Sequence record: NC_129898.1
DNA length: 64,000 bases
Source: a phage
Direction: 5' to 3' (one strand)
In this document: positions 3,606 to 50,499 of the stretch, in pieces
Numbering within the stretch: the stretch's first letter is position 1
Layout of the letters: the number at the start of each line of letters is the position of its first letter
The notes under the pieces: generated by a model
Seen by the model: the letters and a program-made list of their open reading frames with translations, nothing else
Databases searched by the model: none
What the model was told of the DNA's origin: nothing
Translations under genes and position numbers: made by a program

Positions 3606-5673
3606 ATTCATGGCATCTGCATACAACCGTTTCGGTGAGCCAAACCCGAAAGCAACCAAATATAAAAGTGGGGGGAGTGTGAAACGAGACTATCGTGATG
3701 AAAAAGAGGTCGAAACTGTAGAGACTGTTTTAGAAAATACTAAAATTGTCCCTGTCCCACAACAAAATATCGGACTAATGGCTGCACAATACTTTGGTGT
3801 GCGATCAGCATTGTCTCAAGAAGATGGGGTAACGGTCACTGCAACATATTTCCCATATTACGACCGCTACGGTAATCTATCTGGCTTTAAAAAGCGCGAC
3901 TGGACAATCCCTAAAGAGCAAAGAGGCCATTTCTCAGTTGTTGGCATAGTAAAGGCCAACTCTCAGATGTTTGGTCAAAAGCTGTGTGCATCCTCCAACA
4001 ACCGCAAGCAGATTAACGTTTGTGAGGGGGAAGGGGATGTTATTGCAGCATGGCAAGCTGCATATCAGATACAAGTGAAAGGTATTCTCACCAATGCTAA
4101 AGCCCCCGCGAAGGTGAAGCAGTGGGCTAAAGAAGTTCAGGATGGGATCGATGCAGTTATCAACGGCGGCGATCTGGCAGGAAAACCCTGCCTGCCTTTT
4201 GTTGGAATTAACTGCGGGTGTGCAAACGCCGTAGATACTTTTGCTAACAATGAGAAATTTATCCGTAGCTACGGAACAGTGGTCCTTGCAATGGACAACG
4301 ATGCAGCTAACGAGGTAGAGAAGCAAAAACACGTTATCAAAGGTGTTGAGGCCACACATAATATCGCAGCATTTTTGATGGCTGATAACGTTTACCACGT
4401 GGAATACCCAGGTGAGGTAAACGACCCTGATGGTGTAAAAGATATTCGTGACATGCTGAAGGCTAAAAAGCTGGAAGATATTGTCAACATGTTCCGTCAC
4501 CCAGTTAAATATGTGCCCGATGCTGTATCTGATTTAGAAGACTTCTCCATTGAGTCTCTTCGTAAGAAGACTTCCAATGGCGTGGATATCAGTGCGGAGT
4601 TCCCTAAATTGCAGAAGATGCTGAAAGGGCTCCACAAAGGCACCTTGATGATGCTGACAGGTCCATCTGGCGGTGGTAAAACAACTGTAGCCAAGAAGCT
4701 GGAACACTGCATCGCAAGATACTTGATGGATCCAACATGCCCTAAAGCTGATGATTATGAAGAGGATGATCGCCTGTGTCTGATTCACCTTGAAGAGGAT
4801 CCTGAGGAAGCAATCAACTCTCTGTACGCTAACCAGTTGGGGTTTGATGTTAAAGAGTTTGTTGAAGACCCTAGTCAGTTCCTGACCGACCAGGAGCACG
4901 CTGAGATTCATCAATCTTGGGCCAAGGCCGGAAAAATCAAAGTGTTCAAGCATTTCGGCTCCATCCCTGTGGATGAGCTGATCACTAAGCTTAAACAAAT
5001 GGTGTGCCTGTATCACTGCCGTTACATTGTGCTGGATCACTTGTCTATGGTGATTTCAGGGCTTAATGTTAAGGATGAGCGCAAAGAACTTGACATGGCT
5101 ATGACCCAACTAGCTGCGTTCTGTAAGCAGTTTAATGTGTTTATCCTGGTGATTGCTCACCTGAAACGTACAGAGATTGTACCTCCTAAGGATAAGGATG
5201 GGAATCCGTTGCCTTTCTGGTACCCTGTACGAAAAGAGAACCTTCGTGGTAGTGCCGGATTGGAGCAACTCAGCTGGGTAGTTGTTGGGGTAGAAGCAGA
5301 AGAGATGGTGGATCGTTCTCGTGGGCGTGTCCGTCTAGTAGGTCTTAAAAACCGTCCAGCAAAAACGTTAGGTATTGCGGACACTTTAGTTATGGATCCG
5401 CACACAGGCAAGTTCCACGATGCCAGCAATTGGTACTGGGATAAAGAAATGCAAATGTTTACAGACGGAGAAGGTGGGGAGGTTGTTTGGAGACCTCAGG
5501 CTATGTTTGAGGATCAGGATCATGCAGTTGTGGAAACACCTATGGGCAAGGTTGTGGCTGATAAGGTTGTAACTCCTACTGTTACCCCAGTTGACACACA
5601 GGAAGACCTTCAGTATGATGATCCGTCCTCTAACCACGTTCCTGGTTTTGAAGACGACGAAACACCTTTTTAA
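3595..5673 (+). CDS. DNA primase-helicase (TOPRIM plus T7 gp4-like helicase)
   Basis: TOPRIM-like CEGEGDV and MDNDAANE; Walker A LTGPSGGGKTT; IVLDHLSMV like T7 gp4 helicase motif. Confidence 0.85.
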   Translation: MGSKFMASAYNRFGEPNPKATKYKSGGSVKRDYRDEKEVETVETVLENTKIVPVPQQNIGLMAAQYFGVRSALSQEDGVTVTATYFPYYDRYGNLSGFKKRDWTIPKEQRGHFSVVGIVKANSQMFGQKLCASSNNRKQINVCEGEGDVIAAWQAAYQIQVKGILTNAKAPAKVKQWAKEVQDGIDAVINGGDLAGKPCLPFVGINCGCANAVDTFANNEKFIRSYGTVVLAMDNDAANEVEKQKHVIKGVEATHNIAAFLMADNVYHVEYPGEVNDPDGVKDIRDMLKAKKLEDIVNMFRHPVKYVPDAVSDLEDFSIESLRKKTSNGVDISAEFPKLQKMLKGLHKGTLMMLTGPSGGGKTTVAKKLEHCIARYLMDPTCPKADDYEEDDRLCLIHLEEDPEEAINSLYANQLGFDVKEFVEDPSQFLTDQEHAEIHQSWAKAGKIKVFKHFGSIPVDELITKLKQMVCLYHCRYIVLDHLSMVISGLNVKDERKELDMAMTQLAAFCKQFNVFILVIAHLKRTEIVPPKDKDGNPLPFWYPVRKENLRGSAGLEQLSWVVVGVEAEEMVDRSRGRVRLVGLKNRPAKTLGIADTLVMDPHTGKFHDASNWYWDKEMQMFTDGEGGEVVWRPQAMFEDQDHAVVETPMGKVVADKVVTPTVTPVDTQEDLQYDDPSSNHVPGFEDDETPF

Positions 5674-5731: not shown

Positions 5732-8155
5732 ATGAGTATGTGGTCTTTCGATCTGGAGGCCTCTGGCTTGCTGGAAGATCCAGATCTTTATTATCACTGC
5801 GGTTTGTTTAAAGAGCTGAATAAGAACCGTTTTATGCTGTTCCTTCCTCTAAATGACCGCACACACTACTCGGAAGAGGATGTAGAGAAGGCTAAGAACT
5901 TTATTCTGGCAAAGAGAACTCTTTATAAAGATTTTGAGGTTCGCATAGCAGATTTTTCAGAGTTGGAAGGTTGGCTTACAGGCAACTCAGACTGGTCACC
6001 TACGGCTTTGAACTGTCATAACTGCTACAGCTATGACTTTATGCTGATGGAAAGATTATCCGGTGTTCATTTTGATATGTTCCGTGATCCTAAATGTATG
6101 GGGACTATTAACGACCACCAGGTTAATCTGTTTGATACGTTGGCGATGAGTCGAATCTTGTGGCCTGACCGCCCTTTGCCAAAAGGTTGTCCGGACGCAG
6201 TATTCAATCCAGTTACCAAGAAAATGCAGCCTGTTGGGCCTCATGGCCTTATGGCATGGGGCTATGCCCTTGGTAACCAGAAAGTTCAAATCGATGACTG
6301 GCGTGAGCTTCCGCTGTGGAAGTATGTGGATCGTGTGTTCGAGGACGTTATCATCCAGGAGTTGCTCTGGAAAGAGTTGGTAGCGGAATCAAAAGGTGTA
6401 TTCTACGGCAAATCTGACATGCAGAACTTTATGTATGACCCTGCCAAAGAGAAGCCTAAAGGATTCAAGAAGATTACCTGGAAGAATGCATTACGCCGAG
6501 GCATGCTGCAGCATTTCCTGATGGAGCTGCAGGCTCGACAGGGTGTGTATTTCGACATAGATGGGGCTATTGCTTTACGTGACCGCTGCGATGCGTGGAT
6601 GAAAGAGATCGCTGATCGTGTTGAACCACAACTTCCTTTAAAAGAGTTATCAATGTCTCAGCGGCCTAAGTTCCCTGAAAAGCCGTTTAACCAGGATGGG
6701 ACAATCTCCAATAATGGTTGGAAATGGTTAAAAGACAAGCTTGGCTATCCTGTGGATATGAGCGCTTTAGAGTTCAAAGCTCCTCCTAAGCGAGCATTTA
6801 CCTCCACAGGGGATGTCAGTAAAATGGGGATAAAATGGTGTGAAGAGATGGGCTGTAAAGACCCAGATAAGATGGCTGATTTCTTGAGAGGGTATATCAA
6901 AGGAACTTCTACACCACACCCTTTACCTAAAGAGCTAATGGATCAGGCAATAAGTGACCTACAGCAGAAGCGAATGCCTGACTGCAAGATACCTATGAAA
7001 ATCAGCAATCAGGACGACATCAAGCGATACCTGATCAGTGCTGGTTGGCTCCCAACAATGTGGAGAACTAAGGATGTAACTAAAGACAGCAAGAAGAAAG
7101 CTCTGCCTGATGCTGATGTTGATGCACGAGTATATGCATATATGGACGAGCTTTTAGAGTCAGAGTATTGTGACCTAATTATCAACTTCTGGAACAAAAC
7201 TGATGCTAAGTTTCAGACAACCGTGCACAAGTTCCGAAGCTTCCCTAACTCAGAAAGGATTAAAAAGGAAGTGTTTGGGAAGATACGTAGAAAAGCCAGA
7301 GCGCTTATTACTTCTCCGCAACTGAAAGATACGTTTGGACACCTATGTCCGAATCTTGAAAAGTTGAACGGAGAGATGGCTAAAGATATCGTCTTGTGGT
7401 TATCCTTGCGAAACCGTAGATCGGTCCTTGATCCAATCAAGGAGGATAAGGTTGATACTGGTCTTCTTAATCATCCACGTTTGAAGATTGACCATAAGCT
7501 TCCTGCTAAAAGTTCTGGATTAACAAACACTTCCAGACAGAAACACAGCATTTGTGCAAACATGCCTAAACCATCTCCTAAAGTGGTTATGGGTAAAGAG
7601 ATGCGTAGTCTGTGGGGTGTTCCTCCAGGATACTTTGAGATCGGTATTGACGGGTCCAACTTAGAGCAGCTTATCGGGGCTTGGGGTGCCTTTGAGTTCG
7701 ACAACGGCCTGTACTATGATGTTGTAAGTAACGGGGACGCGCACCAAAACAATGCTGAGGCATATACAAAGGTAGCAGGTAGGGAGGTGTCTCGTAACGA
7801 TGGTAAACCTATCACGTATGGGGTTATGTATGGGGCACAAAAAGATAAAGTTGCAGATATGCTGGATATCTCTCCAGAGCTGGGGCAGAGAGTAATCGAT
7901 GCTCTCTGGGATGCCAACCCAGGCCTTAAGGGGCGTAAAGAGGATCTGGAGAAATTCTGGGAAGCAACAGGTAAGAAATTTATCTACTCTTTTGACGGTC
8001 ATGCCATTTGGACCCGCTCTAAACACTCTTTGCTTAATGCATATCAGCAAAATGGCGGTGCATCGTTGTGCGACTTGGTCGGAATCCTCATGCACCACCA
8101 AATGGTGAAGCGTGGATGGTATGATGAGGGTGTTCGTCGTATTATTTATTACCAT
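5732..8155 (+). CDS. DNA polymerase, family A (T7-like), exon 1
   Basis: FDLEASGL exo motif; GIDGSNLEQL (motif A) and RNDGKPITYGVMYG (motif B) align to T7 gp5; frame stops just before expected motif C. Confidence 0.85.
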
Positions 8156-8483
8156 AAATAACATTGTGGCTTCGTGCAGTGATGCACGTCGAAAACCTCT
8201 TTAATTGACGGGAAGGCTAAGTTGACTTTTACACCTAAACATGGTAAAAGCTCAATATGCTAATCCGCAGCGAAGCATCCGAGAGGATGAACGTTCAGAG
8301 ACTATCGAAAGCATAGCTCCAACACAGTTTGGGGTGAAGAAGCGAGTAGAGTAGGCCAGCAAGTGCGGTCGAAATGAGAGGTGCCTTGGTAACAAGGCAG
8401 TGAGATAGTCCGATCCATACGGGAAACTGTATGGCTATGCACGTAATGGTGCGGGGTAGCTTAACGACCTACCTGAACTATTG
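8156..8483 (+). ncRNA. group I self-splicing intron (ORF-less) in DNA polymerase gene
   Basis: 328 nt break between YYH and DEYQ; exon ends in U, intron ends in G; UUGUGG guide can pair CCAU|AA; P7-like CAGAGACUA (8296-8304) and UAGUCC (8406-8411). Confidence 0.65.
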
Positions 8484-8837
8484 GATGAGTACCAACTTCA
8501 AGTCCCTGACACACCTAAGTATAAAACTGTATACACCTTCGACACAATTGAAGAGCTGGAAACATTTAAGTCCCAGCAGGAGGCTAAACTTCATGTGTTC
8601 GACGGTCATAAGTACAAAAAGGCACGCAAGGATGAAGAAGGAAACGAAGTAGTTGACAGTGATGGAAATACGGTATACGATCCTATCTTGAACGATGACG
8701 GAAAGCTTGAACTTATCTGGAGCCCTGTGGGCGAAATGGTGGTACATTGCTTCTGGCAAGCTTCTAAAATGATGGGCGTTCCGTTCCAGATCACAGGTGA
8801 ATACTTGTGTGGACGTAACTGGGGCGATTGTCACTAA
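8484..8837 (+). CDS. DNA polymerase, family A, exon 2
   Basis: Joining restores motif C as YYHDEYQLQV (T7 AWVHDEIQV); C-terminus NWGDCH resembles T7 PNWAICH. Confidence 0.7.
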   Translation, partial: DEYQLQVPDTPKYKTVYTFDTIEELETFKSQQEAKLHVFDGHKYKKARKDEEGNEVVDSDGNTVYDPILNDDGKLELIWSPVGEMVVHCFWQASKMMGVPFQITGEYLCGRNWGDCH

Positions 8838-45596: not shown

Positions 45597-46070
45597 TTAG
45601 TCAACCTGAACCCAACCGCCTGCTACCTTTTTAAACATTCTTTGGTTATCACTGCCTCGGAATGGTTTCTTGGTTGGTAAATCTTTTACATACTTTCCAT
45701 CAATGACGATATCAGCCAGTTTAAGAACATCACTAGAGATATGCTCAAATGTGAACCCAGTATACACAAGAATAGTTTTCTTGTCACCAAACTTTTCCTT
45801 AATTCTCCTCATAAGGTTGATAATATCTGGCTCATTATAAGTAGCCAAAGGCTCTCCACCAAGTAAAGAAATACCGCATACAGATTCATTGTCTAAATCC
45901 AACAAAATTTTCTGCAAATCTTCTTCGGTGAACTCTCTTCCTTTATCTTTTGACCAAAATGCTTGATTAAAGCAACTGGGACAAGCGTGTGGGCACCCAG
46001 ATACCCACAAAGCTGTCCTAATACCTGGCCCCTCGGTGTAAGATATCTCTGTATACCCGACAATATTCAT
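45597..46070 (-). CDS. nrdG: anaerobic ribonucleotide reductase activating protein (radical SAM)
   Basis: GCPHACPSC cysteine cluster near N-terminus; next to nrdD; start set to ATG 46070. Confidence 0.75.
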   Translation of the reverse strand: MNIVGYTEISYTEGPGIRTALWVSGCPHACPSCFNQAFWSKDKGREFTEEDLQKILLDLDNESVCGISLLGGEPLATYNEPDIINLMRRIKEKFGDKKTILVYTGFTFEHISSDVLKLADIVIDGKYVKDLPTKKPFRGSDNQRMFKKVAGGWVQVD

Positions 46071-46183
46071 ACATACTCCGCATCGCATTTAGGACAATGC
46101 CAAATAAAATCGTCCAGTGCCTTACACCAACGAAGATTGCAATGACAACCACACTTGCAAATTTTATAAATACCTGTAGACAT
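46067..46183 (-). CDS. hypothetical small Cys-rich protein (38 aa)
   Basis: AGGAGG RBS; four Cys pairs; stop overlaps nrdG start (ATGA). Confidence 0.4.
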   Translation of the reverse strand: MSTGIYKICKCGCHCNLRWCKALDDFIWHCPKCDAEYV

Positions 46184-46246
46184 GCTGCACCTCCTAGTTT
46201 ACTGTGTGACAACAATATGCAACATCCTTGTGACTTTTGTCAAGTA

Positions 46247-47209
46247 TCAGCAACCACAACTTCCGTAGTGCTTAACCCGTTCTATAACCTCCGCTTGCTT
46301 ACCTTTATTGTAAGGACGGGAGTTTGGACTGGACAGATACCCGGATACACGTCTAATCACACTGATCGTTCCCTCTTCATGGTTTCCACACTCTGGGCAT
46401 ACAAAGCCTTTAGCTGTTGCACTGAACTCACCAGAGAATCCACACTTAAGACATTTATCCACAGGCTGGTTAATACCAAAATACATAATGTGTTTATATC
46501 CGAAATCAACAAGAGCTTCCAAAGCATCTAAGTTGTTTTTCAGATTTGGTGTCTCTATGTACCCAATGTTGCCACCAGAGGAGATCATAGCAAAACCTTC
46601 CTCATACTTCCACTTATCAAAAGGCGAGCTATTGATCCATACTGGCTGATGGAAACTGTTGGTGAGGTATTCATGCTCGTGCTTCAACACTTCTGGGTAT
46701 TCACGATCCAGACAGGTTGCAGCTTTATAGCATAAACTCTCAGAAGGTGTGCCGTACAAGCTAAATGCTAGTCCACTTTCCTTCTTGTATCGCTCACAAG
46801 CATCTTTCATGTGCTGAAGGATTCCAAGAGCTAAAGCCTTGTCACCCTCTCTGCCCAAAATCTGACAGGTTTCATACACACCAATATACCCAATACTGAT
46901 GGAAGCGTACCCGTCATAGAAGAGTTTATCGATACTCTCTTCAGGATCCAGGCTAGCAAGAGCTCCTTCACACCACATGATAGGGTTATGCCCTGCCTTT
47001 GTTCCTTTTAGACGGTTAACTCTTACAAGGTGAGCCTCATATGCCAAATCCAAATATTCGTCAAGAACTGCAAAGAAATCAACACCTTCCGTTTTAGCTT
47101 TTGCCGCAATCATTGGTAGGTTAAGGCTAACAACACCCAAGTTGAATCTGCCAAGGTATTTCTCCTCGCCTGTTACAGGGTCGCTATATTTCGATAAGAA
47201 ACTTCTACA
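46247..47209 (-). CDS. nrdD: anaerobic ribonucleoside-triphosphate reductase, exon 2
   Basis: Glycyl-radical motif RRVSGYL; zinc ribbon CLKCG...CPECG; begins CRSFL. Confidence 0.8.
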   Translation of the reverse strand, partial: CRSFLSKYSDPVTGEEKYLGRFNLGVVSLNLPMIAAKAKTEGVDFFAVLDEYLDLAYEAHLVRVNRLKGTKAGHNPIMWCEGALASLDPEESIDKLFYDGYASISIGYIGVYETCQILGREGDKALALGILQHMKDACERYKKESGLAFSLYGTPSESLCYKAATCLDREYPEVLKHEHEYLTNSFHQPVWINSSPFDKWKYEEGFAMISSGGNIGYIETPNLKNNLDALEALVDFGYKHIMYFGINQPVDKCLKCGFSGEFSATAKGFVCPECGNHEEGTISVIRRVSGYLSSPNSRPYNKGKQAEVIERVKHYGSCGC

Positions 47210-47971
47210 CATTATGTTCAAGGTGGTTCGCAAGGCCACCCCCGCACCATTACGTGCTGCTGCATGTCCCCATGCAGATCAGACTATATCTTCACACTTA
47301 GTGTGTCTACCATTTCGAGTGTCATCAGCTTACACCCTACACCGCTACATTCATCACGGTTAGTCGTTAGGCATTTCGTAACAGAACTCGTAATCATAGT
47401 TATTAGGTGCACCACGTTTCAGGATAGCAGATATTCTTTTTCTATCTATTCCTAAAACATCAGCACAACATCTCAGACTCTTAAAGTGAATAACCACACC
47501 AGTTAATTTGTGGGTGGCTTTCACCCCGTGACATCTTGTGTAAAAAGCATAACAGTTGTTGTCGTATCCTTCTTGAGTATTGTCTGGGCAAGCTCCCCAC
47601 TCAAGGTTGTATACGCTGTTATCTTTCCTGTTGTCACCTTTGTGCTTAACATATGGTAAATTGTCTGGATTTGGTAAAAACGCTTCAGCAACAAGTCTGT
47701 GAACCCTTAGGCAAACAGTCTTTTTGTTCTTGCGTATCCTGACAAGACGGTAACCTGTGTTTATCTCTTCCCACGAATGAATAATTCTTTCATTTTCGTA
47801 TCGGGTGCAATAAACATTGCCCATCTCGTCAATTTCATAACCTTCAAAATCACGAATTTGTTTTCTCATTTCAGGACTCCTCTTAGTCAGGAGTTCTGTT
47901 ACGTTTAGCACGGGATTGTCCGTTCTGGAGTTTCCCCGTTTAGATAGATTTTACATGAGCAGTTATAGTTT
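47210..47971 (-). mobile_element. group I intron in nrdD carrying an HNH homing endonuclease gene
   Basis: 762 nt break between ...TSMG and CRSFL...; exon ends in U, intron ends in G; HNH ORF in a different frame; P7-like GACUAA and UAGUCUGA downstream of the ORF. Confidence 0.65.
47360..47911 (-). CDS. intron-encoded HNH homing endonuclease
   Basis: HRLVAEAF...VKHKGDNRKDN...NLEW HNH core; C-terminal helix-turn-helix-like IDRKRISAILKRG; AAGAGGAG RBS. Confidence 0.8.
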   Translation of the reverse strand: MLNVTELLTKRSPEMRKQIRDFEGYEIDEMGNVYCTRYENERIIHSWEEINTGYRLVRIRKNKKTVCLRVHRLVAEAFLPNPDNLPYVKHKGDNRKDNSVYNLEWGACPDNTQEGYDNNCYAFYTRCHGVKATHKLTGVVIHFKSLRCCADVLGIDRKRISAILKRGAPNNYDYEFCYEMPND

Positions 47972-49132
47972 ACCCATGCTTGTTACTTTGCCGTCTGTTG
48001 AACCTGTCACTTTACGATTTAGTGGAACAGAAACAAAGTCAGGATAAATCCGCTCTGCAGAGCATTCTAGAGCCAATCGTTTCAAATCGTAGTTAGGATC
48101 CCCAGGGTTCATGTTGACACCCTCCTCTAAGAAGAACAGCACTTTAGGAAACACAGGGGTGATCCGTTCTTCACCAAGACCCATTTTGTGGACTTTCAAG
48201 TAGTTTTTGGTAATCATTCTACCAAAGACCGAGGTATCCAGTCCTAAACTTAATGTGATGAATGGAGTTTGCCCGTTGACAGAAGTTAACGTATTGATTT
48301 GGTAGAGCAAAGTTTGCATACTATCAAACACGTCTTTATCTGTCATTTGCATTGCAACAGTCTCAGCATCTGGCAACCAATGCTCCTGACAAAATTTAAG
48401 GTTCTTCTCATAGGTTGCTTCAGCATACTGTGCCAGATAATGATCAATATGGCTCATGGTTTGACCACCATATTGAGCACTAGCTACTGCACTAGAGATT
48501 TGGCTAAGGATTGTTGTTGCAACCCCTATTGACTTCGGCTTACTGACATGGGCGTTGCCAATGTTGAATCCGTTTTCCAGCATATCCGGATAATTTACCA
48601 AACAACAGTTTGTTAACGGACTGATCAGGTAGTCAAGATCATGCACATGGATGAAGCCTTTGTTGTGCTCTTCGGAGACACGGTCTGGCAGGATCTGTGT
48701 TGATGCAAGATGTTTGCTAAGGATGCCTGCAAGCAGGTCACGATGAGTGTGTACATGATTAGTAGGCTTATTTGCGTTTTCTTTTGTAAATTCATCACAA
48801 GTACGATCCAAGAAGCCACTAATATCTGCAAGCAGTTTTCCACCTGCCTCTCTGTTATTATCTCTTGTCTGTCTATACTGGATGTATTCTCTGGCTGCAC
48901 ATTTTAAACCCATATCCATAAGAGCATCTTCAACAAGGATATGGATATTTTTTACAGAGATCGTGCACTGGTCGGTTGGCAGATTGTTGGCAACAACTTC
49001 ATTAACCGCACAGGCAATCCGGTAAGCTTCTTCTTCAGTATGTCCAGACTCAAGTAAGGCGGACTCTGCCGCCTTGATCACCTTAATTCCGTTATAAAAC
49101 TCTTCTCTACCGTCCCGTTTTACAACTTTCAC
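47972..49132 (-). CDS. nrdD: anaerobic ribonucleoside-triphosphate reductase, exon 1
   Basis: ATP-cone-like N-terminus MKVVKRDGREEF; frame stops 3 codons after inferred splice point. Confidence 0.8.
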
Positions 49133-49407
49133 TTTTTCTCTCCAAAACCATTCTTAACAAAAGAGATGAAATCGTCAGCACCACCTATGTGGATACTGTC
49201 AAGGTTGCTTTCCAAGAAGATCTGAGGCAACGTTCTGGGAACAAATGGGCTACACTTCTCGATAAGCTCTTCTTTTGTGTATCCCTCACCTAGCGTCTTG
49301 TATACGAAAGGTATGCCTTTGCTGACTGCAAATTCTTTTGCTCTTACACAATGTGGGCAGTTATCCTTGCCGTAAATGATGATGAAAAAAGATTTTTCGC
49401 AGCTCAT
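49129..49407 (-). CDS. glutaredoxin-like protein
   Basis: Active site YGKDNCPHC; between nrdB and nrdD. Confidence 0.75.
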   Translation of the reverse strand: MSCEKSFFIIIYGKDNCPHCVRAKEFAVSKGIPFVYKTLGEGYTKEELIEKCSPFVPRTLPQIFLESNLDSIHIGGADDFISFVKNGFGEKK

Positions 49408-49410
49408 ATA

Positions 49411-50499
49411 TTAAAACTCCCAAATTTCTTCTTCAGCGTCGTTAACGGTTGTGTTGACGCGGTAGTCGGTGTTAGACATTTCCTGGTTAGCCGTCTGTTG
49501 CAGTGAAGGTTTCATCCACACCTGCATAAACGGTAGCGGGTCCTTTGTTGGCGGCACAAAGTCTTTGTCGATGTCGTAATAATCATAAATCGGTGAGCAG
49601 TTATAGTCAACCCATTCTTTAAGCAACGGGGAATTAAGACCTATAATCGCTCTTCCTTCGCTGAAAATATAGTCACTCCAACCGTACTCCTTGGTCCGCA
49701 CTTCGTCAAGAATTTCTTTTAACTCACCCTTAATCTCAAGAAAGCTTTGCTCCCATGCAGGATCATCAAGCAGGATATCGATGATAGCAAAATCACCTTT
49801 CGAATGCAGCATTTCATCAAGCATAATTTTTTGAACAAGTTGTGCCACTTGAACAAAAATACCTTGCTCAGCTACTGCGAACGTACATGCAAAACTTGCA
49901 ATAAACTCAATACTTTCTAGAGCTAAAAGTGCAAAAAGTGCTCTAAGGATACATTTCCGTACAACATCTTCTTCAACACTGGAAGGATCCAGTCGGTATT
50001 TTGCACCAATAACCTCAAGCTCTTGCATATATTTGACAATAACTCCAGATCTGCTCAGCACGTTCTGGTTTTCCTGAATCTCTTCTATAATCTCGCGAGC
50101 ATTAGGAAGGCATTGTCTAACAATCTCTGAGTAAGTTAGTGCATGAAGAACCTCAATCTCAGACTGCTTCATCAACAAGGTGAAAAGCTCACTGTTGGTG
50201 ATAAATGGTGAAAACAGACAAATGATAGATCTTGCTGCAACACTGTCTGCCTCCCATTGCCACATCAGTGTCTGCACCATCACATCGTAAGTTGACTTTG
50301 AGCATGTTACGAAATCAGAAATAGACTGTGACAAATCTACTTCGTCCTCTGCCCAATCTTGTTCTTTTTGTTTTTTGTATAGTTCAAACAGCTGTGGATA
50401 CTTTTTGTTAATAGAGTCGTACATCCCCATCTGCTGTCCTAGAAACAGCGGATAATCACCAGTTTTATGAGCAGTGTTCTCAGTATTAAATACGGACAT
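49411..50499 (-). CDS. nrdB: ribonucleotide reductase small subunit (class Ia)
   Basis: Ferritin-like helices; directly downstream of nrdA. Confidence 0.8.
   Translation of the reverse strand: MSVFNTENTAHKTGDYPLFLGQQMGMYDSINKKYPQLFELYKKQKEQDWAEDEVDLSQSISDFVTCSKSTYDVMVQTLMWQWEADSVAARSIICLFSPFITNSELFTLLMKQSEIEVLHALTYSEIVRQCLPNAREIIEEIQENQNVLSRSGVIVKYMQELEVIGAKYRLDPSSVEEDVVRKCILRALFALLALESIEFIASFACTFAVAEQGIFVQVAQLVQKIMLDEMLHSKGDFAIIDILLDDPAWEQSFLEIKGELKEILDEVRTKEYGWSDYIFSEGRAIIGLNSPLLKEWVDYNCSPIYDYYDIDKDFVPPTKDPLPFMQVWMKPSLQQTANQEMSNTDYRVNTTVNDAEEEIWEF

What the first reader, a model, noticed from the sequence alone, without database searches (positions are those of the whole stretch)
47210..47971. 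Group I intron with HNH homing endonuclease gene in nrdD
NrdD is in two ORFs separated by 762 nt that hold an HNH endonuclease ORF in a different frame with its own RBS. The inferred junction GGU|UGU reconstitutes ...TSMG-CRSFL..., which I recall as a conserved NrdD region. GACUAA and UAGUCUGA lie downstream of the HNH ORF as in introns with an ORF in a peripheral loop. Two introns in one replication region suggests active homing endonuclease traffic.
Basis: partly seen in the sequence, partly recalled or inferred. Interest (0 to 1): 0.65.

Follow-up and report, generated by a model that had tools for sequence, protein, structure and literature searches.

The report
Mobile group I intron in nrdD

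Summary
The finding holds. The window is a Vequintavirus (rV5/FV3-like). On the minus strand, nrdD is interrupted by exactly 762 nt (47971..47210). Intron-less relatives read GGT|TGC straight through, and the Pfam NRDD profile runs 1-263 and 264-562 across the junction. The insert is a subgroup IA2 group I intron. It has P1 with a U·G pair at the 5' splice site, the P3/P7 pseudoknot, P4-P6, P7.1/P7.2, P8, P9-P9.2 and a terminal G. In 8 related ribozymes 95.8% of cells pair, and 33 of 63 pairs show compensatory change. Rfam misses it at gathering (32.9 bits) only because a 169-aa ORF sits in the P6a loop; the 279-nt ORF-less orthologue in phi92 scores 70.6. The ORF is an I-HmuI-like HNH endonuclease, and its last 11 codons double as P6a-3', J6/7 and P7. 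The ribozyme is about 80% identical to the T4 nrdD intron but lies about 110 codons downstream, between Gly289 and Cys290 (T4 numbering), and carries a different endonuclease in a different loop. The same site is occupied in Felixounavirus, phi92-like, Avunavirus, Vibrio phages and IMG/VR contigs, with HNH, GIY-YIG or no ORF. One detail is wrong: all three ORFs share one frame. Splicing and homing are inferred. New member of a known kind; modest interest.

The parts
47972..49132 (-). nrdD exon 1 (ATP-cone plus the N-terminal half of the NrdD barrel; ends ...T-S-M-G)
   Evidence: ORF list. Pfam ATP-cone and NRDD profile positions 1-263. Junction fixed against intron-less PDX.
47210..47971 (-). 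Group I (IA2) intron, 762 nt, from the first base after the GGU codon to the terminal G
   Evidence: Precise 762-nt presence/absence. Rfam RF00028 partial hit of 32.9 bits at 47260-47494. Orthologous ORF-less intron of phi92 scores 70.6 bits. Covariation analysis.
46247..47209 (-). nrdD exon 2 (starts C-R-S-F-L; glycyl-radical domain and Zn ribbon)
   Evidence: Pfam NRDD profile positions 264-562 and Gly_radical. The first residue aligns to T4 NrdD Cys290.
47972..47979 (-). P1 5' strand (exon GCAUGGGU); U47972 forms the splice-site U·G pair
   Evidence: Pairs with 47953-47960. 96.9% of cells paired in 8 sequences. One exon/guide compensatory change, C-G in the window versus G-C in REP8. Coordinates.
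47953..47960 (-). Internal guide sequence GCUCAUGU (P1 3' strand), the same as in the T4 nrdD intron
47964..47968 (-). Candidate P10 strand CUAUA, pairing with the first five exon-2 bases UGUAG (47209-47205)
   Evidence: 75% of cells paired in the alignment. By eye on the sequences, the same pairing would be 7 bp in REP8 and 4 bp in Vibrio phage F99. This is the weakest helix.
47910..47948 (-). P3 5' strand (47943-47948), P4 (47934-47939 with 47910-47915) and P5 (47927-47929 with 47919-47921)
   Evidence: P3, P4 and P5 are each 100% paired. Pairs with compensatory change: 4 of 6, 2 of 6 and 2 of 3.
47891..47909 (-). P6 (GC) and P6a 5' strand CGUAACAGAACUC
   Evidence: Complementary over 13 bp to 47377-47389 (duplex -19.1 kcal/mol). 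P6 GC/GC is invariant.
47876..47894 (-). Hairpin ACUCCU/AGGAGU whose 3' arm holds the Shine-Dalgarno GAGGAG (47877-47882) of the endonuclease gene; its 5' arm overlaps the outer 4 bp of P6a
   Evidence: RNAfold gives -7.8 kcal/mol. An equivalent hairpin is present in ORF-less phi92 and in nepoznato. A regulatory role is inferred.
47360..47869 (-). HNH homing endonuclease gene (169 aa plus stop), looped out of P6a
   Evidence: PHROG 59 at 4.5e-32. I-HmuI 1U3E at 6e-8 over residues 3-166. AlphaFold pLDDT 90.1, and Foldseek finds 1U3E at 2.6e-11 as the only significant hit. H76, N88 and N97 are invariant in 44 homologues.
47361..47389 (-). Overlap of coding and ribozyme sequence: the last 10 sense codons of the ORF (...E-F-C-Y-E-M-P-N-D), with the first two bases of its stop codon UAA (47362-47360), form P6a 3' strand (47377-47389), P6 3' (47371-47372), J6/7 and P7 5' strand GACUA (47361-47365)
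   Evidence: Read directly from the sequence. The same AUGCCYAACGACUA stretch is non-coding in the T4 nrdD intron. EMPND* is kept in the 50%-identical Vibrio F99 orthologue.
47317..47360 (-). P7.1 (47341-47360) and P7.2 (47317-47337), the IA2-specific hairpins between P7 and P3'
   Evidence: 97.5% and 93.8% of cells paired; 4 compensatory pairs each.
47282..47311 (-). P3 3' strand GGUAGA (47306-47311), P8 hairpin (47293-47305), J8/7 and P7 3' strand UAGUC (47282-47286)
   Evidence: P3, P8 and P7 are each 100% paired. P7 was written as a pseudoknot with P3. One P7 compensatory change occurs in Avunavirus 18-1-2.
47210..47277 (-). P9 (47260-47277), P9.1 (47244-47257), P9.2 (47222-47240) and the 3' tail ...GAACAUAAUG ending in the terminal G at 47210
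   Evidence: P9 is 100% paired with 3 compensatory pairs. P9.2 shows 5 compensatory pairs. The MFE fold recovers P9, P9.1 and P9.2.

Best explanation
This is a mobile, self-splicing group I intron of subgroup IA2, the T4 td/nrdB/nrdD type. It sits in the phage's class III ribonucleotide reductase gene, between the codons for Gly and Cys of the finger-loop motif M-G-C-R-S-F-L (Gly289|Cys290 in T4 NrdD numbering).

Splicing (inferred). After transcription the RNA folds into the group I core. The internal guide GCUCAUGU pairs with the last eight exon-1 bases and presents the U·G pair at the 5' splice site. A free guanosine bound in P7 attacks there. The terminal G (47210) then takes the same site, and the exons are joined to give one 707-aa NrdD.

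The endonuclease. The intron carries a 169-aa I-HmuI-like HNH endonuclease gene looped out of P6a. Its Shine-Dalgarno sequence lies in a small hairpin. Its last codons are also the P6a 3' strand, J6/7 and P7. A ribosome finishing the ORF would therefore unfold the core, so translation of the endonuclease and splicing are probably mutually exclusive on a single RNA.

Homing (inferred). In mixed infections the endonuclease is expected to nick or cut intron-less nrdD alleles near the G|C junction. Recombinational repair from the intron-containing genome would then copy the intron together with a short stretch of flanking exon.

Shown here: the precise insertion, the conserved and covarying ribozyme structure, the family and fold of the endonuclease, the patchy distribution, and the flank variant linked to the intron. 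Inferred: actual splicing, endonuclease activity and cleavage site, and the translational coupling.
For: Insertion. It is exactly 762 nt. Intron-less PDX is contiguous GGT|TGC, and EPFV3 and JEP1 are identical to the window at both boundaries. Pfam NRDD runs 1-263 and 264-562 across the junction.

Ribozyme. Rfam aligns P7, P3', P8, P7' and P9 at 47260-47494 (32.9 bits, E 2.5e-6). phi92 has a 279-nt ORF-less intron at the same bond, 90% identical in the shared parts. It scores 70.6 bits against a gathering score of 50, and its GenBank record annotates a spliced nrdD CDS. On 8 ORF-deleted relatives, 95.8% of cells pair and 33 of 63 pairs carry compensatory changes. No shuffle out of 500 reached this, and slid controls gave 31-44%. 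The MFE fold of the ORF-deleted intron recovers P3-P6a, P7.1, P7.2, P8, P9, P9.1 and P9.2.

Endonuclease. PHROG 59 at 4.5e-32, 1U3E at 6e-8, and Foldseek 1U3E at 2.6e-11 on a pLDDT-90 model. H76, N88 and N97 are invariant.

Mobility signature. With a spliced-junction query, 17 records are split there and 114 are continuous. All 17 records at >=95% identity over the flanks are of the intron-containing (split) type in the rows shown; continuous alleles shown are <=90.6%. The divergent patch runs from about -31 to +75 around the junction, in a gene otherwise 90-100% identical per 50-nt window.

Same site in other phage groups. The site is occupied with intact, decayed or absent HEG in Phapecoctavirus nepoznato, Felixounavirus Alf5 and REP8, AMO3598, Avunavirus 18-1-2 and Vibrio phage F99. 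It is also occupied in IMG/VR contigs, with HNH, GIY-YIG or no ORF.
Against: No transcript or splicing data exist for this intron or, in the library searched, for any orthologue. The window sequence itself is below Rfam's gathering score, which the 510-nt ORF in P6a explains. The protein is below Pfam's HNH_3 cut-off (20 versus 24.8 bits), though homologues carry PF13392 on record. P10 is weak: it needs a 3-nt spacer from the guide, and 75% of cells pair. The residue before the catalytic His is Lys where I-HmuI has Asp74, so activity is not guaranteed. The divergent flank could reflect selection on the endonuclease target or on P10 rather than co-conversion.
Confidence: 0.9

Rival explanations
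1. Genes-in-pieces. The endonuclease gene split nrdD, the RNA is not spliced, and NrdD is made as two polypeptides that assemble. This happens in Aeromonas phage Aeh1, where mobE splits nrdA.
For: Deposited genomes annotate two nrdD CDSs plus an HNH gene. Papers on Felixounaviruses describe nrdD as 'split by a homing endonuclease' without naming an intron (PMC4837284; PMC3728262). The intron's last three bases are an in-frame AUG, which pipelines use as the start of the second CDS.
Against: The 252 nt outside the ORF fold into a complete group I core that is maintained by 33 compensatory pairs across phage groups. ORF-less versions of 252-316 nt persist at the same bond, which a free-standing endonuclease insertion would not leave behind. 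No purine-rich Shine-Dalgarno-like run is seen directly upstream of the terminal AUG. [quoted passage not shown]
Confidence: 0.04
2. It is a real group I intron that is no longer mobile. The ribozyme still splices, but the endonuclease is inactive or decaying, as with I-TevIII in the T4 nrdB intron, and the element is now inherited only vertically.
For: Decay series at this site: AMO3598 keeps only the last 12 codons, REP8 keeps a 12-codon remnant, and phi92 and 18-1-2 keep none. The window protein has Lys where I-HmuI has Asp74.
Against: The ORF is full length relative to I-HmuI (169 versus 174 aa). It is 90-100% identical among 27 phage records and keeps H76, N88 and N97. The model is confident (pLDDT 90). 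The intron is present in about 13% of otherwise about 95%-identical Vequintaviruses, with a linked flank variant, which fits recent transfer.
Confidence: 0.08
3. It is an intein: an in-frame protein-splicing element with an HNH domain.
For: The insert is a multiple of three (254 codons), lies in frame with both exons, and sits in front of a Cys codon, which is the usual residue after an intein.
Against: In-frame stop codons lie upstream and downstream of the HNH ORF: two UAA stops precede the ORF's first possible start, and several stops follow it. No Hint or intein blocks were found in Pfam. The non-coding parts form a ribozyme.
Confidence: 0.005

Closest known systems
Phage T4 nrdD (sunY) group I intron with I-TevII
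   Same: Same host gene and same subgroup (IA2, with P7.1/P7.2 and no P2). Same internal guide GCUCAUGU pairing with an AUGRGU exon end. About 80% nucleotide identity over the P7-P9 core, and 82% for the Mosigvirus KAW3E185 copy over both halves. Similar 3' tail (UGAACAYAWUG).
   Different: Different insertion site: T4 is interrupted at A-Y-E|Y-E-V, about 110 codons upstream, and T4 reads straight through P-M-G-C-R-S-F-L. Different endonuclease: I-TevII is annotated as GIY-YIG family and is 258 aa, whereas this one is an I-HmuI-like HNH of 169 aa. Different loop: the T4 ORF lies 3' of P9, in the P9.1 region, whereas here it is in P6a.
phi92 nrdD intron (GenBank NC_023693, gene 192A 'spliced variant')
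   Same: Same insertion bond (GCAUGGGU|AAACUAUAAC...AACAUAAUG|UGUAGAAG). About 90% identical ribozyme, with the same hairpin at the tip of P6a. Passes Rfam's gathering score.
   Different: It has no endonuclease gene (279 nt versus 762 nt). It belongs to another phage subfamily (Stephanstirmvirinae). Its relative nepoznato has the same ORF at 90% amino-acid identity.
I-HmuI / I-HmuII introns of Bacillus phages SPO1 and SP82 (DNA polymerase gene)
   Same: An HNH endonuclease of the same architecture (N-terminal beta region, HNN catalytic motif, C-terminal helix-turn-helix) encoded inside a phage group I intron. From the literature on I-HmuI (my own knowledge), a single-strand nick near the insertion site is the likely mode of action.
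   Different: 23% identity only. Different host gene, ribozyme lineage and host phylum. Nicking versus double-strand cleavage is not known here.
T4 td intron / I-TevI
   Same: ORF looped out of the P6 region, ribosome-binding site sequestered in a hairpin, and similar P3-P6 sequence (td details from my own knowledge of published work; core similarity of 71.7% over query positions 596-713).
   Different: GIY-YIG enzyme, thymidylate synthase gene, and T4 late-promoter control, for which no counterpart was found here.
Felixounavirus and Vibrio-phage 'split nrdD with homing endonuclease'
   Same: Same bond (P-M-G|C-R and Y-M-G|C-R). Orthologous HNH ORF (about 50% identity) in the same loop. In Vibrio phage F99 the ORF has the same E-M-P-N-D* overlap with P7.
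   Different: Described in papers only as a gene split by an endonuclease, with no intron called (PMC4837284, PMC3728262). In Alf5/REP8-type copies the ORF stops before J6/7.

Membership tests
Group I intron (Rfam RF00028) | P1 helix between the 5' exon end and an internal guide, with a U·G wobble at the 5' splice site | tested here: met
   Exon GCAUGGGU (47979-47972) pairs with GCUCAUGU (47960-47953). The U·G pair is invariant in 8 of 8 sequences. One exon/guide compensatory change. 96.9% of cells paired.
Group I intron (Rfam RF00028) | Conserved core P3-P4-P5-P6 and P7-P3'-P8-P7' with the P3/P7 pseudoknot, plus a terminal G | tested here: met
   All core helices are 100% paired with compensatory changes. 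The last intron base is G47210. The MFE fold agrees.
Group I intron (Rfam RF00028) | Score at or above the family's gathering threshold (50 bits) | tested here: inconclusive
   The window scores 32.9 bits (E 2.5e-6 on 1.2 kb; 1.3e-4 on 64 kb), because the model cannot bridge the 510-nt ORF in P6a. The ORF-less orthologue in phi92 scores 70.6 bits and T4 nrdD scores 105.3 bits. This is an operational threshold, not a defining property.
Group I intron (Rfam RF00028) | Precise absence from intron-less alleles, restoring a continuous conserved reading frame | tested here: met
   PDX and 113 other records are continuous across the junction. The Pfam profile is contiguous. T4 NrdD aligns through the junction.
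Group I intron (Rfam RF00028) | Guanosine-initiated self-splicing | not testable with these tools
   Needs in vitro transcription with labelled GTP, or RT-PCR.
Subgroup IA2 (T4 td / nrdB / nrdD type) | Extra hairpins P7.1 and P7.2 between P7 and P3' | tested here: met
   47341-47360 and 47317-47337; 97.5% and 93.8% of cells paired, with 4 compensatory pairs each.
T4 nrdD (sunY) intron / I-TevII element | Insertion at the T4 site (A-Y-E|Y-E-V) and a GIY-YIG-type I-TevII ORF 3' of P9 | tested here: not met
   The window is uninterrupted at the equivalent T-L-L-Y-Q-I-N stretch. Its insertion is about 110 codons downstream, and its ORF is an HNH in P6a. It is a related ribozyme lineage, not the same element.
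HNH (beta-beta-alpha-metal) homing endonucleases, I-HmuI-like | Catalytic His...Asn...Asn/His motif in a beta-beta-alpha fold | tested here: met
   H76, N88 and N97 align to I-HmuI H75, N87 and N96 (residue numbers counted from the alignment) and are invariant in 44 homologues. Strand 73-76, strand 89-92 and helix 94-103 in the model.
HNH (beta-beta-alpha-metal) homing endonucleases, I-HmuI-like | Family profile match and whole-protein similarity to a solved member | tested here: met
   PHROG 59 at 4.5e-32. 1U3E at 6e-8 by sequence and 2.6e-11 by fold, the only significant PDB hit. Pfam HNH_3 itself is sub-threshold for this protein (20 versus 24.8 bits), but homologues carry PF13392, PF07463, PF07453 and PF22083.
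HNH (beta-beta-alpha-metal) homing endonucleases, I-HmuI-like | Site-specific cleavage or nicking of the intron-less allele | not testable with these tools
   Needs a cleavage assay on a PDX-type nrdD target.
Intein | Uninterrupted in-frame fusion with both exteins, and Hint-domain blocks | tested here: not met
   In-frame stops lie on both sides of the HNH ORF. No Hint or intein Pfam match.

The most novel reading that the evidence does not exclude
The Gly|Cys bond at the tip of the NrdD finger loop may be a pan-phage intron homing hot-spot. On this reading, one IA2 ribozyme lineage that uses the same internal guide as the T4 nrdD intron reached a second AUGRGU site in the same gene. It could have done so by guide-directed (reverse-splicing-like) transposition or by endonuclease retargeting. 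It has since been re-armed repeatedly with unrelated endonucleases: HNH in P6a in the window, GIY-YIG in IMG/VR contigs that the scan picked by the guide pattern alone (kinship of their ribozyme cores not shown), and none in others. The set of intact, truncated and ORF-less copies would then be a natural record of the whole invasion, decay and loss cycle of intron homing, and of 'core creep' of an ORF into P7.
Probability: 0.35. Interest if true: 0.45.

Novelty: new member of a known kind. Interest (0 to 1): 0.3.

Why it matters
Practical value. More than a dozen deposited Vequintavirus genomes, and many Felixounavirus and Vibrio-phage genomes, annotate nrdD as two genes plus an unrelated protein; one record even calls it a 'winged helix-turn-helix' protein. 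The correct annotation is one spliced CDS plus an intron-encoded homing endonuclease.

Biological value. This is another textbook case of a selfish intron placed at the codon of a catalytic residue, here the thiyl-radical cysteine of a glycyl-radical enzyme. It offers a clean comparative series: the same ribozyme lineage at two sites of one gene; HNH, GIY-YIG or no ORF at the same site; graded ORF decay; and ORF codons that double as P6a, J6/7 and P7. That series could be used to study how endonuclease genes enter and leave introns and how translation and splicing compete. The enzyme is also an uncharacterised I-HmuI-like endonuclease with a defined natural target. None of this changes current understanding of group I introns.

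Tried and rejected
1. The Rfam gathering scan of the whole window found only the DNA polymerase intron. The nrdD intron appeared only at the E-value threshold, so Rfam alone would have missed it.
2. My first structure string used a single bracket type. This mispaired P3 with P7 and gave 22-27% pairing for those helices. Writing P7 as a pseudoknot corrected it.
3. My first P10 assignment landed on a UGUAG in the P7.1 loop by mistake and was fixed. P10 remains the least secure helix.
4. I first expected the intron to be the T4 nrdD intron at its T4 site. Translation of the T4 locus showed a different site and a different ORF position.
5. The promoter/terminator scan of 46000-49500 gave fewer promoter-like sites than shuffles and nothing placed to drive the ORF, so no claim is made about separate transcription.
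6. The phi92 genome paper (PMC3457257) is not held, so the 'spliced variant' annotation could not be traced to experiments.
Only loci confirmed by ribozyme blastn or NrdD tblastn were used: 42 of 120 had a ribozyme-like hit, and 12 showed both exons. My exon-2 boundaries are one base off; the true break is ...G|UGU.
8. The intein reading was rejected because of the in-frame stops.
9. I considered phi92-like phages as the direct donor of the window's intron. Only the first 14 exon-2 bases match them, and beyond that the window's flank is unlike both phi92 and intron-less Vequintaviruses, so the donor is unidentified.
Full report
**What the window is.** The 3.3 kb around the finding is 99.1% identical to Escherichia phage EPFV3-03/2025 and 94-98% identical to many other Vequintaviruses (rV5/FV3-like myoviruses). 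On the minus strand the gene order is nrdA, nrdB, glutaredoxin, nrdD, nrdG.

**Checking the observation.**
- Exon 1 ends ...ACA AGC AUG GGU at 47972, and exon 2 starts UGU AGA AGU UUC at 47209. The 762 nt between them are 47971..47210.
- Intron-less Vequintavirus PDX reads ...AGCATGGGT|TGCCGGAGT... without interruption. EPFV3 and JEP1 carry the same 762-nt insert at the same bond.
- The bases flanking each boundary differ, so the placement is unique.
- The Pfam NRDD profile is matched at positions 1-263 by exon 1 and 264-562 by exon 2.
- Aligned to the solved T4 enzyme, the junction falls between Gly289 and Cys290. Cys290 is the finger-loop cysteine that carries the thiyl radical. The residue number is established knowledge of T4 NrdD; the role of the conserved finger-loop Cys is stated in PMC4493059.
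- One detail of the finding is wrong. Because 762 = 3 x 254, exon 1, the HNH ORF and exon 2 are all in the same frame, separated by in-frame stops: two UAA stops before the ORF's first possible start, and several after the ORF. This also rules out an intein.

**The ribozyme.**
- Rfam at gathering finds nothing here. At the E-value threshold it aligns 47260-47494 to Intron_gpI (32.9 bits, E 2.5e-6), with confident matches to P7, P3', P8, P7' and P9. The low score is explained by an ORF that splits the core.
- phi92 (Justusliebigvirus) has a 279-nt ORF-less intron at exactly the same bond. It is about 90% identical in the shared parts and scores 70.6 bits. The T4 nrdD intron scores 105.3 bits. 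The phi92 record annotates a joined 'spliced variant' CDS.
- I aligned eight ORF-deleted relatives: the window, nepoznato, phi92, Avunavirus 18-1-2, Felixounavirus REP8, Vibrio phage F99, T4 and Mosigvirus KAW3E185. I then counted pairs for a hand-drawn structure.
- 95.8% of cells pair, and 33 of 63 pairs show compensatory changes. No shuffle out of 500 reached the observed values, and slid controls gave 31-44%.
- P3, P4, P5, P6, P7 (as a pseudoknot with P3), P8 and P9 are each 100% paired. P1 is 96.9% paired, with an invariant U·G at the splice site and one exon/guide compensatory change. P7.1 and P7.2, the IA2 hallmark, are 97.5% and 93.8% paired. P10 is weaker at 75%.
- The MFE fold of the ORF-deleted intron recovers the same helices.

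**The ORF.**
- ATG 47869 to stop 47360 encodes 169 aa, and GAGGAG lies 7 nt upstream.
- It matches PHROG 59 (HNH endonuclease, 4.5e-32) and aligns end to end with I-HmuI (1U3E, 6e-8).
- A pLDDT-90 model finds 1U3E as the only significant PDB match (2.6e-11).
- H76, N88 and N97 correspond to I-HmuI H75, N87 and N96. They are invariant in 44 homologues, whose precomputed domains are HNH_3, NUMOD4, NUMOD1 and the I-HmuI NUMOD-like domain.
- The ORF is looped out of P6a. The 5' strand CGUAACAGAACUC (47903-47891) pairs over 13 bp with GAGUUCUGUUACG (47389-47377), which lies inside the coding sequence (-19.1 kcal/mol).
- The last codons...E-F-C-Y-E-M-P-N-D-stop, are at the same time P6a-3', P6-3', J6/7 and the P7 strand GACUA. 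The same AUGCCYAACGACUA stretch is non-coding in the T4 intron.
- The Shine-Dalgarno sequence lies in the 3' arm of a hairpin, ACUCCU/AGGAGU (-7.8 kcal/mol). Its 5' arm overlaps the outer P6a pairs. ORF-less phi92 already has this hairpin, and in nepoznato the ORF begins right after it.
- I infer that the endonuclease gene entered a pre-existing intron, and that its translation and core folding compete. Neither inference was tested.

**Relation to the T4 nrdD intron.**
- The core is about 80% identical to T4's (82% for KAW3E185), and the internal guide GCUCAUGU is the same.
- T4's intron sits at A-Y-E|Y-E-V, about 110 codons upstream, and T4 reads through P-M-G-C-R-S-F-L.
- T4's ORF, I-TevII, is annotated as GIY-YIG family and lies 3' of P9.
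- Both sites end in AUGRGU, which the shared guide requires. That is compatible with guide-directed transposition, but it is also simply what splicing demands. By my own estimate, about one such hexamer is expected per gene by chance.

**Distribution and mobility signature.**
- In the phage collection, 17 records carry the full element in a Vequintavirus nrdD. With a spliced-junction query, 114 records are continuous.
- All 17 records at >=95% identity over the 164-nt flank are of the intron-containing (split) type in the rows shown. The continuous alleles shown are <=90.6% identical, while the rest of the gene is 90-100% identical per 50-nt window.
- The divergent patch spans about -31 to +75 and is mostly synonymous, which fits co-conversion during homing. 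Its first 14 exon-2 bases equal those of phi92-type intron carriers. Beyond that the donor is unidentified.
- The same bond is occupied in other phage groups:
  - Phapecoctavirus nepoznato, 770 nt, with the ORF at 90% amino-acid identity.
  - AMO3598, 290 nt, which keeps only the last 12 ORF codons.
  - Avunavirus 18-1-2, 252 nt.
  - Felixounavirus REP8, 316 nt, with a 12-codon remnant.
  - Alf5, with an intact ORF at 50% identity.
  - Vibrio phage F99, 819 nt, with an ORF at 51% identity and the same E-M-P-N-D* overlap.
- An IMG/VR scan, filtered by ribozyme and NrdD matches, shows further nrdD M-G|C-R introns of about 190-1240 nt. They carry HNH, GIY-YIG or no ORF.

**What is already known.**
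- The rV5 paper reports only terminase introns (PMC3606486).
- Felixounavirus papers describe nrdD 'split by a homing endonuclease' without calling an intron (PMC4837284 and PMC3728262).
- In the related Certrevirus CB7, RT-PCR showed splicing of HNH-containing introns in other genes, but nrdD was not among them (PMC7344957).
- The phi92 record annotates splicing of the ORF-less form.
- The element is therefore present and partly annotated in databases. Its kind is classical, and no experiment on it was found in the library searched.

**Verdict.** This is a well-formed mobile IA2 group I intron with an I-HmuI-like HNH homing endonuclease, placed immediately before the catalytic Cys codon of nrdD. 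It is a new member of a known kind, with modest interest (0.3). Its main value is in correcting annotation and as a comparative series for the gain and loss of intron-borne endonuclease genes.

Noticed in passing
window 8146-8433 (+), flanked by ORFs 5732-8161 and 8481-8837: A second, ORF-less group I intron (Rfam RF00028, 75.6 bits) interrupts the family-A DNA polymerase gene. Relatives show three states: no intron (about 328 nt shorter), ORF-less intron (the window and HMD-6), and intron plus an HNH ORF (about 514 nt longer; Phage 206, ime, WalterGehring).
   Followed up: partly
L003 (FV3) about 1529-2333; L004 (JEP1) 1531-2412: FV3 and JEP1 carry a different HNH-containing insertion in nrdD at V-N-G|Q-T-P-F, 100 codons upstream of the window's site. 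JEP1 has both insertions. It shows a P1-like AACGGU/GCCGUU pairing and GACUA...UAGUC, and the ORF lies before P7'. Rfam did not reach gathering. The window lacks this insertion.
   Followed up: partly
L004 (JEP1) 4418-5353: JEP1 has an extra 311-aa ORF between nrdD and nrdG that is absent from the window. It may be another free-standing mobile gene.
   Followed up: no
L010 (AMO3598) 401-690; L012 (REP8) about 1084-1399: The endonuclease gene appears at graded stages of decay at the same intron site. AMO3598 retains only ...Y-D-Y-E-F-C-Y-E-M-P-N-D*. REP8 retains M-P-N-N-F-E-Y-E-F-G-Y-I*. phi92 and Avunavirus 18-1-2 retain nothing.
   Followed up: partly
IMG/VR loci L022, L046, L056, L063, L093, L101, L111, L117, L118, L120: Uncultivated viral contigs have nrdD introns at the same M-G|C-R bond, with HNH (L022, L101), GIY-YIG (L046, L093, L120) or no ORF. 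This points to endonuclease replacement at one homing site.
   Followed up: partly
window 47210-47212; L001 2589-2591: The intron's last three bases are AUG, in frame with exon 2. Annotation pipelines start the second 'nrdD' CDS there, giving M-C-R-S-F-L..., which is an artefact. EPFV3 also labels the HNH ORF 'winged helix-turn-helix DNA-binding domain protein'.
   Followed up: yes
GenBank MG065635-MG065690 ('Campylobacter phage' records): Records labelled as Campylobacter jejuni phages are 92-95% identical to E. coli Vequintaviruses across nrdD and the polymerase gene. The host label looks doubtful.
   Followed up: no
window 47130-47240 versus L002 and L003: The first 40 or so nucleotides of exon 2 exist in at least three mostly synonymous versions among Vequintaviruses: the window type, the PDX type and the FV3 type. 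They include Arg CGG/AGA/AGG and Ser AGC/TCG switches. This could reflect repeated homing and intron-loss events, or selection on the endonuclease target.
   Followed up: partly
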